From a virus (lineage: Duplodnaviria > Heunggongvirae > Uroviricota > Caudoviricetes), in the IMG/VR virus record IMGVR_UViG_2713896780_000003: a stretch of 4,944 nt of DNA; one strand, written 5' to 3'. Shown piece after piece: positions 846 to 4,535 of this stretch. The position numbers and the translations under genes are program-made. The notes beneath the pieces are model-generated. The model was given only the letters and a program-made list of their open reading frames with translations. It did not search any database and was not told the DNA's origin. Positions within the stretch are counted from its first letter, which is position 1; each line of letters begins with the position of its first letter.

Positions 846-1005
846 AATGACGCCCTCTGGTGGTTTCTAAACCATCACCACCGTCAGGTTCCTAATCATC
901 GGGTGGTGAGACGTACAGGGTTAGGAACTACCGGGAAACCAACCGGCGAGCTTTTCAGCTCCCCCATACGCCCCACCATAATTCAGATGTGCGCGTGCAT
1001 ACGAC

Positions 1006-1030
1006 AATAAAAAACACGCTCGCGGCGTGT
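1006..1030 (-). terminator. tR'-like intrinsic terminator downstream of the late promoter
   Basis: Minus-strand transcript reads ACACGC-CGCGA-GCGTGT followed by TTTTTATT: a 6-bp stem (plus 1014-1019 paired with 1025-1030), 5-nt loop, U-tract from plus 1006-1013. Confidence 0.5.
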
Positions 1031-1086
1031 GTCTGTCGCGGTCTCTATCCGGGGTTCCTAATCCCGACGCCAGATTTTGCTGGCGC
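1008..1086 (-). ncRNA. Predicted short leader transcript from the pR'-like promoter to the tR'-like terminator (about 80 nt, lambda 6S-RNA-like)
   Basis: Inferred from promoter and terminator positions. It begins with hairpin CGCCAG-CAAAAT-CTGGCG (plus 1068-1085) and ends at the terminator. Start site is estimated, not observed. Confidence 0.3.
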
Positions 1087-1092
1087 GTGAGG

Positions 1093-1122
1093 AATATAGC
1101 CCCGGATAACAGATTGAGTCAA
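1093..1122 (-). promoter_or_regulatory. Sigma70 promoter, pR'-like late promoter overlapping the stop codon of the Q-like gene
   Basis: Minus strand reads TTGACT (plus 1122..1117) then 18 bp then TATATT (plus 1098..1093). The -35 overlaps the TGA stop at 1121..1119. The spacer contains CCCCGGATA. Confidence 0.5.
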
Positions 1123-2559: not shown

Positions 2560-2630
2560 CGTAGTTCTCCGCTGGCGCAGTAGAATGGGTGTTCAGCCCG
2601 TTATGTAGTATACCAGAATTAATGCCAATA

Positions 2631-2843
2631 CTAACAGGATGCTCTGACTCGCAATTCATCCAGCAGTTTATCATTTCCCATAATGTCACTTACCCTCATC
2701 GGTAAAAAAATTGCCTTTCGACCATTACGATACATCATTGATTTTGGGGTTTCAGGGAAGTAATCCATTTCGACTATAACTGACAGGTCATCACGACGTA
2801 TGACTGCGTATTTGCAACTAAATAGTTTCTTTATTTTTTCCAC
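2631..2843 (-). CDS. Hypothetical small protein (70 aa) downstream of the AT-rich island
   Basis: Internal GTG at 2843..2841 is preceded by GGAGG (plus 2852..2848). The ORF track's GTG at 2882 has no ribosome-binding site. Product MEKIKKLFSCKYAVIRRDDLSVIVEMDYFPETPKSMMYRNGRKAIFLPMRVSDIMGNDKLLDELRVRASC (first residue from GTG); no family recognised. Confidence 0.4.
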   Translation of the reverse strand: MEKIKKLFSCKYAVIRRDDLSVIVEMDYFPETPKSMMYRNGRKAIFLPMRVSDIMGNDKLLDELRVRASC

Positions 2844-3028
2844 GATGCCTCCGAGTTTATAAGTACAAACGGTTATATCCACATAGAGACAAAAATATTA
2901 ATCTGAGAAATATTTATTTCACGCTGTATATTTGATTATTTAATGTGCAGGTACAATGACTTTTATTTTTTGTTGTGTATATAATCAAATATATGGTTAT
3001 TTTTCACCCTGCGCATTCAGCACGCAAC

Positions 3029-3051
3029 AAAAAACCCGCCGAAGCGGGTTT
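3029..3051 (-). terminator. Strong rho-independent terminator with UUCG tetraloop
   Basis: Minus-strand transcript reads AAACCCGC-UUCG-GCGGGUUU followed by UUU, giving six U after the GC stem. On the plus strand the same hairpin is followed by only TTTAG, so it mainly terminates minus-strand transcription. Confidence 0.6.
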
Positions 3052-3162
3052 AGTGCGGGTGCGTTGAGGATGCCTGACACATCAGAGGTGGCGGGAGATT
3101 ACTCCCNNNNNNNNNNNNNNNNNNNNNNNNNNNNNNNNNNNNNNNNNNNNNNNNNNCTTCAT
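3050..3162 (-). CDS. Small ORF with strong start signals, interior masked by N-run; 3' end uncertain
   Basis: ATG at 3162..3160 (MK...) is preceded by AAGGAG 9 nt upstream. Past the N-run one frame stays open to TAA at 3052..3050, directly abutting the terminator; the frame implied by a literal 50-nt gap stops earlier, near 3082. Confidence 0.25.
3107..3156. other. Masked or unknown sequence (50 N)
   Basis: Run of N characters inside a small minus-strand ORF. Confidence 0.95.
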
Positions 3163-3214
3163 AGCCTGCTTCTCCTTGCCTTTCGGCACGTAAGAGGCTA
3201 ACCTACGTGTGTAG

Positions 3215-3244
3215 AGCATAGATATGGCCTCAGATTAATGTTAA
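3215..3244 (-). promoter_or_regulatory. Candidate sigma70 promoter with operator-like repeats for the small ORF at 3162
   Basis: Minus strand reads TTAACA (plus 3244..3239) then 18 bp then TATGCT (plus 3220..3215). The -35 lies within one of two TAATGTTAA direct repeats (plus 3236-3244 and 3262-3270) that flank the imperfect palindrome GCGTCTTGCCGGACGC. Confidence 0.3.
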
Positions 3245-3356
3245 GCGTCTTGCCGGACGCGTAATGTTAACTGGGGCTTTTCTCTGTCTGCCTTACGGTG
3301 GCATGCCCGAGGCAGATAGCCTCAAGCACCCGCAGCAATTCTACTTAACTCTCGCT

Positions 3357-3449
3357 TTACCGCANNNNNNNNNNNNNNNNNNNNNNNNNNNNNNNNNNNN
3401 NNNNNNNNNNNNNNGCACCTTCCATTGCCAGTGAAATATCATCCGACAT
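3357..3449 (-). CDS. Small protein (about 30 aa if the gap is literal), interior masked by N-run
   Basis: ATG at 3449..3447 with AAGGAGG 4 nt upstream, reading MSDDISLAMEGA before the N-run. All three frames stop within 42 nt after the gap; the frame consistent with a 50-nt gap ends with TAA at 3359..3357. Confidence 0.35.
   Translation of the reverse strand: MSDDISLAMEGXXXXXXXXXXXXXXXXXXR
3365..3414. other. Masked or unknown sequence (50 N)
   Basis: Run of N characters inside a small minus-strand ORF. Confidence 0.95.
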
Positions 3450-3484
3450 ATTCCCTCCTTTGGTGTTAATCCCGGCGAACGTTT

Positions 3485-3568
3485 TTACCCCCACCGACAA
3501 ATAACATATACTAAAAAAGCGATAGCCATAGCAACGCCTGTAATTGCAAATGCTTCAGGCCAGTTCAT
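3485..3568 (-). CDS. 27-aa hydrophobic, probably membrane-spanning, peptide translationally coupled to the DUF551-like gene
   Basis: ATG at 3568..3566 overlaps the upstream TGA (ATGA), with AGGAGG 7 nt upstream. Product MNWPEAFAITGVAMAIAFLVYVICRWG has a roughly 18-residue hydrophobic core; TAA at 3487..3485. Absent from the ORF track because of its length. Confidence 0.45.
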   Translation of the reverse strand: MNWPEAFAITGVAMAIAFLVYVICRWG

Positions 3569-3918
3569 TGGCGCACCTCCTGCGGCGGTTCTGGTAGCGG
3601 CATCCAGTGTGTGGCTTCACACACGATGGGCGCACCGAAATACTGCGCATACTGGAAGTCACCCGTATTATCCAGGTTAAAACCTGTAAACTGTTCACCC
3701 GTGCTGGACACAAACAGTTGTACATCAACACCAACTGGCGGCATTCGCTCACTACAGCTTATCCAACCATCCGGAGTTACCGGAGAATTGCCAGCCTTGC
3801 GCATGGCAATCTCCATGATTTCAACCATATCTCCTGGTGGAATTTTACAATGCTGACCAATATGCCTCTGCTGCCTGGCATATTCGAGGATGTGCTCCAG
3901 CTTGATACGATTAATCAT
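3565..3918 (-). CDS. DUF551-like phage protein (117 aa)
   Basis: ATG at 3918..3916 with GGGAG 7 nt upstream. C-terminal region ...GWISCSERMPP...THWMPLPEPP matches my recollection of the DUF551 signature. Start overlaps the upstream stop (ATGA). Confidence 0.6.
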   Translation of the reverse strand: MINRIKLEHILEYARQQRHIGQHCKIPPGDMVEIMEIAMRKAGNSPVTPDGWISCSERMPPVGVDVQLFVSSTGEQFTGFNLDNTGDFQYAQYFGAPIVCEATHWMPLPEPPQEVRQ

Positions 3919-4205
3919 GATTTATCTCCCTGAAGCATGGCTTCGCGGCAGTCGTTCCAGCCTTCAGCATAATCACTATACGCAAGAGGCCAACCGTTTC
4001 TGTATTCACGCGGCAACTTATCAGGCACTACCAGCGCTGGCGGCGCGGAGAATAGTGGTTTAGGTGATATTTCCGCACGTTTTGCGTATGCTTCAACTGT
4101 GTCAGGGTTAAACAGGATTATGTTTTCACCGCATTCCCACGCTATCGGTTCTGCTTCCAGCGATGCCAGTGCAATTTTGAATAGCTCACCCTCTACCCTG
4201 GCCAT
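3915..4205 (-). CDS. Hypothetical phage protein (96 aa), mildly acidic
   Basis: Uninterrupted 96-codon frame from ATG at 4205..4203; first canonical start after an in-frame stop. Ribosome-binding site is weak. Its stop overlaps the next start. No family recognised. Confidence 0.5.
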   Translation of the reverse strand: MARVEGELFKIALASLEAEPIAWECGENIILFNPDTVEAYAKRAEISPKPLFSAPPALVVPDKLPREYRNGWPLAYSDYAEGWNDCREAMLQGDKS

Positions 4206-4322: not shown

Positions 4323-4535
4323 TTAATCGTTGTGATAACTCATAGCTTCATTTGCAGCATCAACTGGATCAACATCCCACCAGCAATAATTTGGGTCGAC
4401 ACCTTCAGGTGTCCACGGCTCTAATTCATTTTTTGCCGCATTCTCGTCGCCAGTAATTTTAAAAATCTGCTCTGAGAACTTTTTCACCCACTCGTTATAT
4501 TTTTCAGCGTTAATAACTTTCTGTGCGTTTGACAT
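4323..4535 (-). CDS. Small acidic hypothetical protein (70 aa)
   Basis: ATG at 4535..4533 with a G-rich stretch (GGGGG) about 8 nt upstream; TAA at 4325..4323. Product MSNAQKVINAEKYNEWVKKFSEQIFKITGDENAAKNELEPWTPEGVDPNYCWWDVDPVDAANEAMSYHND has about 14 acidic versus 6 basic residues. Confidence 0.55.
   Translation of the reverse strand: MSNAQKVINAEKYNEWVKKFSEQIFKITGDENAAKNELEPWTPEGVDPNYCWWDVDPVDAANEAMSYHND

What the first reader, a model, noticed from the sequence alone, without database searches (positions are those of the whole stretch)
3170..3340. Operator-like architecture: TAATGTTAA direct repeats flanking a palindrome over a promoter -35, plus a leader inverted repeat
Two TAATGTTAA copies (3236-3244 and 3262-3270, 26 bp apart) bracket the imperfect palindrome GCGTCTTGCCGGACGC (3245-3260). 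One copy overlaps the -35 of a candidate minus-strand promoter. An inverted repeat CACGTAAG / CCTACGTG (3187-3194 and 3202-3209) lies between the predicted start site and the AAGGAG site. The driven ORF is tiny and ends at the strong terminator, giving a self-contained promoter, micro-gene, terminator unit inside the nin operon. That resembles a regulated small-protein or sRNA module.
Basis: seen in the sequence. Interest (0 to 1): 0.55.

Follow-up and report, generated by a model that had tools for sequence, protein, structure and literature searches.

The report
Known hok/sok toxin-antitoxin leader
The "operator-like" repeats are the stem of the small antisense RNA Sok, which silences the membrane-toxin gene hok in a prophage; this is the hokW/sokW type of toxin-antitoxin module, already described and tested, so the finding is ordinary.

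Summary
They are not a protein operator. Window 3157-3331 (minus strand) matches the Rfam sok family (the hok/sok leader model) end to end: 112.6 bits against a gathering score of 59.

The N runs are shorter than the DNA they replace. In 21 E. coli genomes that are 100% identical over the unmasked bases, N run 3107-3156 stands for 162 nt. Those 162 nt hold a 51-aa Hok/Gef toxin, so the "tiny ORF" is a masking artefact.

The locus is 95% identical to the annotated mokW/hokW/sokW of phage 933W and Sp5, which Takada et al. (2021) showed to be a type I toxin-antitoxin. The annotated sokW RNA maps to window 3211-3281 (+).

The two TAATGTTAA copies and the palindrome between them form one 22-bp hairpin of that RNA:
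- It pairs through G·U wobbles on the plus strand only.
- 96% of cells pair across 59 homologues, with compensatory changes.
- A U-run follows it.

The CACGTAAG/CCTACGTG inverted repeat overlaps the sok promoter (-35 at 3176-3181, -10 at 3199-3204) and shows no covariation.

It was wrong on the operator, the promoter and the ORF. The element is already known and of low interest.

The parts
3338..3365 (-). Inferred hok promoter: -35 TTGCGG (3365..3360, last base under the mask), 16-nt spacer, -10 TAGAAT (3343..3338), 6 nt before the conserved GGGTGC 5' end
   Evidence: Sequence. A TAnnnT hexamer sits 6-7 nt upstream of GGG(T/C)GCTTGAGG in divergent homologues (TATAAT, TACAAT, TAGACT, TAAGAT, TATATT). 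Assigned by position only; no transcript data for this locus.
3026..3331 (-). Full-length hok mRNA: about 415 nt in reality, because 162 nt are compressed into the 50-N mask at 3107-3156
   Evidence: The Rfam sok model begins at 3331. The terminator lies at 3051..3026. The full-length L001 equivalent folds at -175.2 kcal/mol, z -7.4.
3320..3331 (-). tac element (5' end GGGUGCUUGAGG)
   Evidence: Nearly invariant in 76 homologues. Pairs with the 3' fbi element. Element names follow PMC9841398.
3054..3069 (-). fbi element (CCUCAACGCACCCGCA), which pairs with the 5' end
   Evidence: Arms 3054-3062 and 3326-3334 are 9/9 complementary; arms 3064-3076 and 3313-3325 are 77% complementary. The minimum-energy fold closes 5' on 3'.
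3026..3051 (-). Intrinsic terminator of hok mRNA (AAACCCGC-TTCG-GCGGGTTT followed by a T-run)
   Evidence: (inverted repeat I5).
3176..3204 (+). sok promoter: -35 TTGCCT (3176-3181), 17-nt spacer, -10 TAACCT (3199-3204)
   Evidence: These bases are identical to 933W. In Sp5, primer YO-421 changes AGGTTA (TAACCT on the sok strand), and the resulting 'pro-less' construct loses antitoxin activity (PMC8621323). The consensus scan misses this promoter because the -10 matches only 3 of 6.
3211..3281 (+). Sok antisense RNA (sokW homologue), 71 nt: variable 5' tail 3211-3226, hairpin 3227-3277, U-run from 3278
   Evidence: The sokW misc_RNA of 933W was mapped through alignment A1. The Rfam RF01794 match covers it. 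It is present at 90% identity or more in 3387 of 5426 complete E. coli genomes.
3227..3277 (+). Sok stem-loop of 22 bp. Outer helix 3227-3233/3271-3277; middle helix 3235-3243/3262-3270 (the two TAATGTTAA copies, with two G·U pairs); inner helix 3245-3250/3255-3260 (the palindrome); loop UGCC 3251-3254.
   Evidence: Fold at -29.7 kcal/mol, z -5.3. On the Sok strand 96.3% of cells pair, 7 pairs change on both sides, and 0 of 500 shuffles reach the score. On the hok strand only 79.8% pair. Stability is about -27.7 kcal/mol on the Sok strand against -17.0 on the hok strand.
3273..3279 (-). ucb / anti-SD (AAGCCCC). It pairs with the mok SD in the closed form and could pair with tac in the processed form.
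   Evidence: Base of the hok-strand hairpin. Pairs 56-106, 57-105 and 58-104 are invariant. The tac pairing is inferred by eye from the sequence. Model from PMC9841398.
3217..3231 (-). mok translation start: SD GAGG (3231..3228) and ATG (3219..3217). Here it is in frame with hok, which would give a 70-aa Mok-Hok.
   Evidence: 933W annotates mokW with the same stop codon as hokW. mok is in frame with hok in 86 of 110 loci.
3194..3198 (-). dcb (GCCUC), the partner of the mok SD in the open, Sok-accessible form; it abuts the sok -10 (3199-3204) and lies inside the promoter spacer
   Evidence: GAGGC/GCCUC is 100% paired but invariant in 75 sequences, so this gives no covariation evidence. Rfam consensus structure. 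PMC9841398 places the R1 Sok-promoter mutation inside the dcb.
3107..3177 (-). hok SD AAGGAG (3177..3172), ATG (3162..3160), and the hok CDS. Everything after codon 2 lies under the mask 3107-3156.
   Evidence: L001 gives MKQQKAMLIALIVICLTVIVTALVTRKDLCEVRIRTGQTEVAVFVDYESEK. Pfam HOK_GEF 81.1 bits against a cut-off of 22. RefSeq annotates it as 'Hok/Gef family protein'.
3085..3106 (-). 3' half of the GC-rich stem-loop GGCGGGGGAG-UAAU-CUCCCGCC. By homology with R1 this is presumably the 3' end of the processed hok mRNA.
   Evidence: The role is inferred from the R1 model in PMC9841398.

Best explanation
Window 3026-3365 is an intact hok/sok-family type I toxin-antitoxin locus of the hokW/sokW type.

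Minus strand:
- It makes a hok mRNA of about 415 nt from a promoter at 3365..3338.
- The 5' end (tac, 3331..3320) pairs with a 3' element (fbi, 3069..3054). This locks the full-length RNA in an inert form.
- In that form the mok Shine-Dalgarno sequence (3231..3228) is held in a hairpin by the anti-SD (ucb, 3279..3273).
- After slow 3' trimming the RNA refolds. mok is translated, and with it hok, producing a 51-aa inner-membrane toxin.

Plus strand:
- A convergent promoter inside the leader (-35 at 3176-3181, -10 at 3199-3204) makes the 71-nt antisense RNA Sok (3211-3281).
- Sok pairs with the mok start region. The duplex is cut by RNase III, so no toxin is made while Sok is being replenished.

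The features in the finding:
- The two TAATGTTAA copies and the palindrome are the two arms and the tip of Sok's single long hairpin, and a U-run follows it.
- The arms read as a direct repeat because the sequence is 'wobble-palindromic': UUAAUGUUA pairs with UAAUGUUAA through two G·U pairs.
- On the hok strand those positions become A·C mismatches. The same DNA therefore gives a stable hairpin in Sok and a weaker, openable one in hok mRNA.

Shown here: family membership, anatomy, strand-specific pairing and covariation.
Shown by others for the Sp5 orthologue: toxicity, antitoxin activity, promoter function, and partial dependence on RNase III and Hfq.
Inferred by homology with plasmid R1: transcript ends, 3' processing and the refolding pathway.
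For: - Rfam sok (RF01794): 112.6 bits, E 6.5e-26, full model 1-157, at 3331..3157 on the minus strand.
- 21 genomes are 100% identical over the unmasked query, and there the masked stretch encodes a Hok/Gef protein. Pfam HOK_GEF scores 81 bits.
- 95.4% identity to the 933W and VT2-Sakai locus annotated mokW/hokW/sokW. The whole hairpin and the sok promoter are base-for-base identical.
- Experiments on the Sp5 orthologue (PMC8621323): HokW is toxic; sokW expressed from its own promoter protects; a -10 mutant loses protection; both RNAs are seen on northern blots.
- Sok hairpin: z -5.3.
- Across 59 distinct homologues 96.3% of cells pair, against 33-46% for slid registers. Seven pairs change on both sides. 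0 of 500 shuffles reach the covariation score.
- Four positions that pair as U·G or G·U in most homologues on the Sok strand are mismatches in most or all on the hok strand. In all 24 hairpin variants Sok is the more stable strand.
- tac/fbi: a 9/9 complement across the whole mRNA, and the minimum-energy fold pairs 5' with 3' (z -7.4).
- The repeat-N17-repeat motif occurs once per locus, at a fixed distance upstream of hok, in 71 loci.
Against: - The hok coding bases of this window are masked. They are inferred from genomes identical in the flanks, not read.
- There are no transcript or toxicity data for this particular paralogue. Its Sok 5' tail differs from Sp5's at about 8 of 17 positions.
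- The sok promoter is weak by consensus (-10 matches 3 of 6), and the promoter scan misses it.
- The terminator scan does not call the Sok hairpin plus U-run as a terminator. The likely reason is the bulges in the stem, but I did not test that.
- The minimum-energy fold of the 3'-trimmed mRNA does not show the open tac/ucb conformation that the R1 model expects.
- Several defining pairings (ucb/SD, SD/dcb) are invariant, so they give no covariation evidence.
- The hairpin structure was derived from the window sequence, which inflates 'cells paired' relative to the slid controls.
Confidence: 0.95

Rival explanations
1. The two TAATGTTAA repeats and the palindrome are DNA binding sites (an operator) for a prophage or host regulator. 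This regulator controls a minus-strand promoter whose -35 is the first repeat copy, and that promoter drives a micro-ORF.
For: A TTAACA-18-TATGCT look-alike (9 of 12) is at window 3244..3215 on the minus strand. The inner 16-mer is a DNA palindrome. After prophage induction SokW disappears in a RecA-dependent way and the mechanism is unknown (PMC8621323), so some extra regulator is not excluded.
Against: - The arms pair only through G·U on one strand. That is an RNA property, not DNA symmetry.
- Homologues keep the pairing while changing the sequence: GC to AU in the inner helix (L023), AU to GC and GC to AU in the outer and middle helices.
- A whole class of functional-looking loci (hokC type, Photorhabdus, Erwinia) lacks the tip of about 18-21 nt altogether.
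- The motif is never found elsewhere in the prophage.
- The '-10' of the look-alike is the conserved mok ATG region.
- The micro-ORF is a masking artefact.
Confidence: 0.03
2. The locus is a decayed hok/sok relic, like several chromosomal hok loci of E. coli K-12. It is recognisable by homology but no longer expresses toxin or antitoxin.
For: PMC9841398 and the bioRxiv survey 10.1101/2025.08.07.668861 recount that chromosomal hokA, hokB and hokC loci failed to mediate post-segregational killing. hokD-type loci have lost the whole leader (L007, L026, L037). No expression data exist for this paralogue.
Against: - Every element is present and intact: both promoters, tac, fbi, ucb, mok SD and ATG, dcb, hok SD, the full Hok ORF, the 3' stem-loop and the terminator.
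- The sok promoter and hairpin are identical to the experimentally active Sp5 copy.
- The full Rfam model is matched with no truncation.
Confidence: 0.08
3. The 9-bp direct repeats are a target-site duplication left by insertion of a tiny palindromic mobile element into an ancestral short Sok hairpin.
For: Direct repeats flank a 17-nt palindromic insert. Homologues fall into a short and a long hairpin class. The palindrome occurs in both orientations among homologues.
Against: - In a scan of viral contigs, about 101 of 120 occurrences of the 16-mer are inside hok/sok leaders. The rest sit in unrelated GC-rich coding contexts with no flanking repeat, so there is no sign of mobility.
- Both-orientation loops are what simple hairpin-tip inversion would produce.
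- The repeats are fully explained as the base-paired arms.
Confidence: 0.03

Closest known systems
mokW/hokW/sokW of Stx2 phage 933W and Sakai prophage Sp5 (VT2-Sakai); GenBank AF125520, AP000422; Takada et al. 2021, PMC8621323
   Same: 95.4% DNA identity over 436 nt. The Sok hairpin, sok promoter, hok SD and ucb are identical. The Hok protein differs only by synonymous changes in the aligned part. mok is in frame with hok in both.
   Different: About 8 of 17 bases differ in the Sok 5' tail and mok start region, and a few more in the 5' hairpin. The 3' end differs: this locus has its own strong terminator at 3051..3026, whereas 933W diverges after the fbi element. The genomic position also differs: here it lies in the nin region between a DUF551 gene and a rem-like ORF, co-oriented with the nin genes. 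In 933W it sits among hypothetical genes about 3 kb from the end of the record.
hok/sok (parB) of plasmid R1, the founding member; model summarised in PMC9841398
   Same: The same set of elements in the same order: tac, ucb, Sok target and mok SD, dcb overlapping the Sok promoter, mok, hok, 3' stem-loop, fbi. There is a convergent antisense RNA of about 65-71 nt with a single-stranded 5' tail followed by a hairpin and a U-run. The Rfam family match is full length.
   Different: HokW is only 44% identical to R1 Hok (PMC8621323). The Sok hairpin here carries a 16-nt insertion relative to the Rfam consensus, giving about 22 bp instead of about 12-13 bp. From my recollection of the R1 sequence, not tested here, mok is out of frame with hok in R1 but in frame here.
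hokD (relF) of the Qin prophage, E. coli K-12
   Same: The Hok protein is about 92% identical (L007). From my own knowledge of the Qin gene order, not tested here, the K-12 gene sits in the same neighbourhood (rem - hokD, next to ydfU/DUF1367 and the Q-like antiterminator).
   Different: hokD-type loci lack the entire leader (tac, ucb, mok, sok) and have other coding sequence immediately upstream (I recognise it as relE from memory). The window locus keeps the complete regulatory leader.

Membership tests
[quoted passage not shown] | Leader RNA matches the family covariance model above the gathering score | tested here: met
   112.6 bits against a gathering score of 59, E 6.5e-26, model positions 1-157 of 157, window 3331..3157 minus strand.
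[quoted passage not shown] | A Hok/Gef membrane toxin ORF of about 50 aa lies directly downstream of the leader | tested here: met
   The ORF is masked in the window. In L001, which is 100% identical over the unmasked bases, it is 51 aa and scores 81.1 bits on Pfam HOK_GEF against a cut-off of 22. The NCBIfam Hok subfamily model scores below its cut-off (53.6 against 73).
[quoted passage not shown] | A convergent cis-antisense RNA (Sok) with its own promoter inside the leader, a single-stranded 5' tail, a hairpin and a U-run | tested here: met
   The annotated sokW maps to 3211-3281 (+). The hexamers TTGCCT-17-TAACCT lie at 3176-3204. The hairpin is supported by folding and by covariation on the plus strand. 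Promoter activity was shown only for the identical Sp5 sequence (PMC8621323).
[quoted passage not shown] | A mok reading frame that starts in the Sok target region and overlaps hok | tested here: met
   SD GAGG at 3231..3228 and ATG at 3219..3217, open through to hok and in frame with it. 933W annotates it the same way.
[quoted passage not shown] | Long-range 5'-3' pairing (tac/fbi) that closes the full-length mRNA | tested here: met
   3326-3334 against 3054-3062 is 9/9 complementary; 3313-3325 against 3064-3076 is 77%. The minimum-energy fold pairs nt 1-14 with the 3' end, z -7.4.
[quoted passage not shown] | The mok SD pairs alternately with ucb (closed form) and dcb (open form), with a tac/ucb stem after 3' processing | tested here: inconclusive
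   Both partners exist, and the pairs are 100% formed but invariant. The minimum-energy fold of the trimmed RNA keeps the closed form. tac/ucb complementarity (GGG-GCUU against AAGCCCC) was seen by eye only.
[quoted passage not shown] | The toxin kills or arrests cells, the antisense RNA neutralises it, and the duplex is cleaved by RNase III | not testable with these tools
   Shown for the Sp5 orthologue (PMC8621323). Not tested for this paralogue.
Protein-bound operator (repeat-palindrome-repeat) controlling a promoter | The sequence is conserved as a DNA-symmetric site, recurs at other regulated promoters, and overlaps a genuine promoter | tested here: not met
   The pairing depends on G·U and is strand-specific. 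Sequence changes are compensatory. Short-class homologues lack the tip. There is no second site in 7.5 kb of the prophage or in the window. The promoter is only a 9-of-12 look-alike.

The most novel reading that the evidence does not exclude
The long-hairpin (hokW-type) class of Sok RNAs may be a functionally distinct variant. Its stem is extended at the tip to about 22 bp, its arms are wobble-palindromic direct repeats, and its 16-nt tip occurs in both orientations. Such a stem approaches two helical turns and is about 10 kcal/mol more stable in Sok than in hok mRNA. It might be recognised in its own right, for example cut by RNase III or bound by a phage- or SOS-induced factor. That could explain the unexplained RecA-dependent disappearance of SokW on prophage induction reported for Sp5.
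Probability: 0.08. Interest if true: 0.35.

Novelty: already known. Interest (0 to 1): 0.07.

Why it matters
It matters little beyond correct annotation. The locus is a further prophage copy of hokW/sokW, a type I toxin-antitoxin annotated in phage 933W and tested experimentally in 2021. Its 71-nt antisense RNA occurs at 90% identity or more in 3387 of 5426 complete E. coli genomes.

Three points are useful:
1. N runs in these windows can stand for longer stretches, so ORFs and distances read across them are unreliable.
2. A direct repeat flanking a palindrome can be a single RNA hairpin when the repeat is self-complementary through G·U pairs. The strand on which the wobbles pair shows which strand is the structured RNA.
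3. RefSeq annotates only the Hok CDS here, not sok or mok. This is a small annotation gap.

Tried and rejected
- Direct repeat as a statistically unusual feature: rejected. Exact 9-mers repeated within 50 nt occur 2 times in the window against a mean of 1.1 in shuffles. A third copy with 1 mismatch, at 4454, is within chance.
63.7% of cells pair, which is no better than shuffles (386 of 500), and the covariation score is below the shuffle mean. A few hokW-type sequences do show a C·G to U·A change. The competing mok-SD/dcb stem pairs better (87.8%).
It is therefore uninformative here.
- Fold of the 3'-trimmed hok mRNA to reproduce the 'open' R1 conformation: not reproduced.
- Palindrome as a mobile mini-element or dispersed binding site: a scan of viral contigs found it almost only inside hok/sok leaders. 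There is one site in L001.
- NCBIfam naming of Hok: below the cut-offs. No Pfam or NCBIfam family matched the 83-aa rem-like ORF or the 34-aa upstream ORF.
- Not used because unnecessary: structure prediction, the large protein searches and the metagenome scan.

Full report
**Observation.**
- TAATGTTAA lies at 3236-3244 and 3262-3270.
- GCGTCTTGCCGGACGC lies at 3245-3260.
- CACGTAAG lies at 3187-3194 and CCTACGTG at 3202-3209.
- AAGGAG, an ATG and a strong minus-strand terminator lie downstream.
- A minus-strand TTAACA-18-TATGCT promoter look-alike (9 of 12) overlaps the first repeat copy.

Taken alone the 9-bp direct repeat is not unusual. The window holds two such repeats within 50 nt, dinucleotide shuffles average 1.1, and a third of shuffles reach two. 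The part that exceeds chance is the composite. As plus-strand RNA, 3211-3285 folds into one long hairpin at -29.7 kcal/mol, z -5.3, and none of 200 shuffles folds as well.

**What it is.** A scan against Rfam places window 3331..3157 (minus strand) in family RF01794, 'sok', which models the hok/sok leader. The match is 112.6 bits against a gathering score of 59, E 6.5e-26, over the full model.

A megablast of 2560-3920 against complete E. coli genomes found 21 genomes that are 100% identical over all unmasked bases. In them the matched span is 1536 nt (1535 in one) for a 1361-nt query, so the N runs are shorter than the DNA they replace.
- Mask 3107-3156 stands for 162 nt.
- Mask 3365-3414 stands for 113 nt.

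In E. coli O145 RM9872 (L001) the first masked stretch holds a CDS that RefSeq calls 'Hok/Gef family protein'. Its product is the 51-aa MKQQKAMLIALIVICLTVIVTALVTRKDLCEVRIRTGQTEVAVFVDYESEK, and it scores 81 bits on Pfam HOK_GEF.

**Identity with a described locus.** The 465-nt locus is 95.4% identical to phage 933W and 95.2% identical to VT2-Sakai (Sp5). Both records annotate mokW, hokW and the antisense RNA sokW.

In the three-way alignment the whole repeat-palindrome-repeat region, the sok promoter region and the hok ribosome-binding site are base-for-base identical to 933W. The annotated 71-nt sokW maps onto window 3211-3281 on the plus strand.

Takada et al. (PMC8621323) showed the following for the Sp5 copy:
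- HokW arrests growth.
- sokW expressed from its own promoter protects the cell.
- A construct with the sokW promoter mutated loses protection, and sokW supplied in trans restores it in part. The mutagenic primer (YO-421) changes AGGTTA, which is TAACCT on the sok strand. Mapping that primer onto the -10 is my reading.
- Protection partly needs RNase III and Hfq.
- Both RNAs are visible on northern blots.
- SokW disappears after mitomycin C in a RecA-dependent way.

That -10 is window 3199-3204. With TTGCCT at 3176-3181 and a 17-nt spacer it forms the sok promoter.

*The repeats and the palindrome.* Together they are the three helices of Sok's single stem-loop:
- outer helix 3227-3233 with 3271-3277;
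- middle helix 3235-3243 with 3262-3270;
- inner helix 3245-3250 with 3255-3260;
- loop UGCC at 3251-3254, and UUUUCUCU after the stem.

The arms read as a direct repeat because UUAAUGUUA pairs with UAAUGUUAA through seven A-U pairs and two G·U pairs. On the opposite strand those two positions are A·C mismatches.

I collected 130 related loci and aligned 59 distinct Sok-strand sequences. The named structure forms standard pairs in 96.3% of cells, against 33-46% when the 3' partners are slid. Seven of 22 pairs change on both sides, and 0 of 500 column shuffles reach the covariation score. The same pairs read on the hok strand reach only 79.8%. Four positions that pair by wobble in most homologues on the Sok strand are mismatches in most or all on the hok strand.

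In all 24 distinct hairpin variants the Sok strand is the more stable one, for example -27.7 against -17.0 kcal/mol for the window type. One caveat applies: the structure was derived from the window sequence, which favours it over the slid controls.

On the hok strand the base of the same hairpin pairs GCCCC (ucb) with the mok Shine-Dalgarno GAGGC. This is the 'closed' sequestration described for plasmid R1 (PMC9841398).

*The inverted repeat at 3187-3209.* It lies between and over the sok promoter hexamers and contains the dcb element (GCCUC). Across 75 leaders it pairs in 63.7% of cells. That is no better than shuffles, and the covariation score is below the shuffle mean. The competing mok-SD/dcb stem of the Rfam consensus pairs in 87.8%.

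*The proposed minus-strand promoter.* It is a look-alike. Its -35 lies in the hairpin arm and its -10 is the conserved mok start (CTATGCT).

By homology the hok mRNA starts at 3331 (GGGUGCUUGAGG). A TAnnnT hexamer sits 6-7 nt upstream of that 5' end in every divergent homologue; here it is TAGAAT at 3343..3338.

**Rest of the anatomy.**
- The 5' end (3326-3334) is 9/9 complementary to 3054-3062, just upstream of the terminator. A second arm pair (3313-3325 with 3064-3076) is 77% complementary.
- The full-length RNA of about 419 nt folds with its 5' end paired to this 3' element: -175.2 kcal/mol, z -7.4. This is the tac/fbi lock of the hok family.
- mok starts at 3219..3217 behind GAGG (3231..3228). 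Here it is in frame with hok, as in the 933W annotation and in 86 of 110 loci examined.
- The repeat-N17-repeat motif occurs exactly once per locus, always at the same distance upstream of hok, in 71 loci.
- No second copy exists in the window or in 7.5 kb of the prophage.
- The 71-nt Sok sequence is present at 90% identity or more in 3387 of 5426 complete E. coli genomes.

**Mechanism.** I take the mechanism to be that of hok/sok.
- The full-length hok mRNA is inert.
- Slow 3' trimming allows it to refold and exposes the mok start.
- Sok, made constitutively but short-lived, pairs there, and RNase III destroys the duplex.
- When Sok is no longer replenished, Mok and Hok are translated and Hok damages the inner membrane.

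Family membership and anatomy are shown here. Toxicity, antitoxin activity and promoter function are shown for the Sp5 orthologue. Processing and refolding are inferred from R1, and the minimum-energy fold of the trimmed RNA did not reproduce the open form.

The strand asymmetry of the hairpin fits a Sok RNA that needs a firm stem and terminator and an mRNA hairpin that must be able to open. That is inference.

**Rivals.**
- A protein operator is contradicted by the wobble-dependent, strand-specific pairing, by the compensatory changes, by homologues that lack the hairpin tip, and by the absence of other sites.
- A decayed relic is unlikely because every element is intact.
- An origin of the repeats as a target-site duplication of a tiny palindromic element found no support. 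In viral contigs the 16-mer is almost confined to hok/sok leaders.

**Verdict.** This is a correct eye for a self-contained small-gene and sRNA module, but the element is a well-known, experimentally characterised toxin-antitoxin locus. The specific operator, promoter and micro-ORF reading is wrong. It is already known and of low interest.

Noticed in passing
window 3107-3156, 3365-3414 (and 767-816): The N runs do not preserve length. 3107-3156 replaces 162 nt and 3365-3414 replaces 113 nt in genomes identical over the flanks. ORFs and distances read across them, such as the 45-aa ORF 3082..3219, are artefacts.
   Followed up: yes
window 899-1099, minus strand: Three Rfam hits lie above their gathering scores: c4-a1b1 (1099..1046), isrK (1086..1009) and C4 antisense RNA (983..899). 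They sit between the Q-like DUF1133 gene (1119-1673) and an ORF6N (antirepressor-like) gene. This looks like a P1 immI / Gifsy isrK-type antisense control region.
   Followed up: no
window 3245-3260; L005, L067, L077, L098, L023, L024: The 16-nt tip of the Sok hairpin occurs in both orientations among homologues (GCGTCTTGCAGGACGC against GCGTCCTGCAAGACGC; window type TTGCCG against CGGCAA in L024). Only the loop is inverted. This looks like recurrent hairpin-tip inversion.
   Followed up: partly
window 3211-3226 (Sok 5' tail / mok start): Among paralogues the single-stranded 5' tail of Sok is the most variable part of the RNA, and the hairpin is the most conserved. About 8 of 17 positions differ from the Sp5 copy. 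Genomes carry up to 6 copies of the Sok sequence. This would fit paralogues that avoid cross-talk.
   Followed up: partly
window 3160-3219; loci L002-L130: The mok ATG is in frame with hok in 86 of 110 loci, which predicts an N-terminally extended Hok. In the other 24 loci it is in one of the other two frames. The frame therefore does not seem to be constrained.
   Followed up: partly
L007, L026, L037 (hokD-type loci): Some close Hok homologues (about 92% identity for L007) have no sok/mok/tac leader at all. Another coding sequence, which I recognise from memory as relE, runs up to the hok ribosome-binding site. This matches the K-12 relBE-hokD arrangement.
   Followed up: no
L001 3961-4065 (window about 3396-3448 plus the masked part), minus strand: A 34-aa hydrophobic ORF (MSDDISLAMEGALAVIAVVGVYCLVVFLMDRLGN) lies directly upstream of the hok promoter. 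It has its own AAGGAGG and a weak terminator-like hairpin. It matches no Pfam or NCBIfam family.
   Followed up: partly
L013, L021, L048: Hok loci nearly identical to E. coli prophage copies turn up on very short contigs of assemblies labelled Acinetobacter idrijaensis, Xanthomonas pisi and a gut MAG. Contamination with E. coli DNA seems the likely cause.
   Followed up: no
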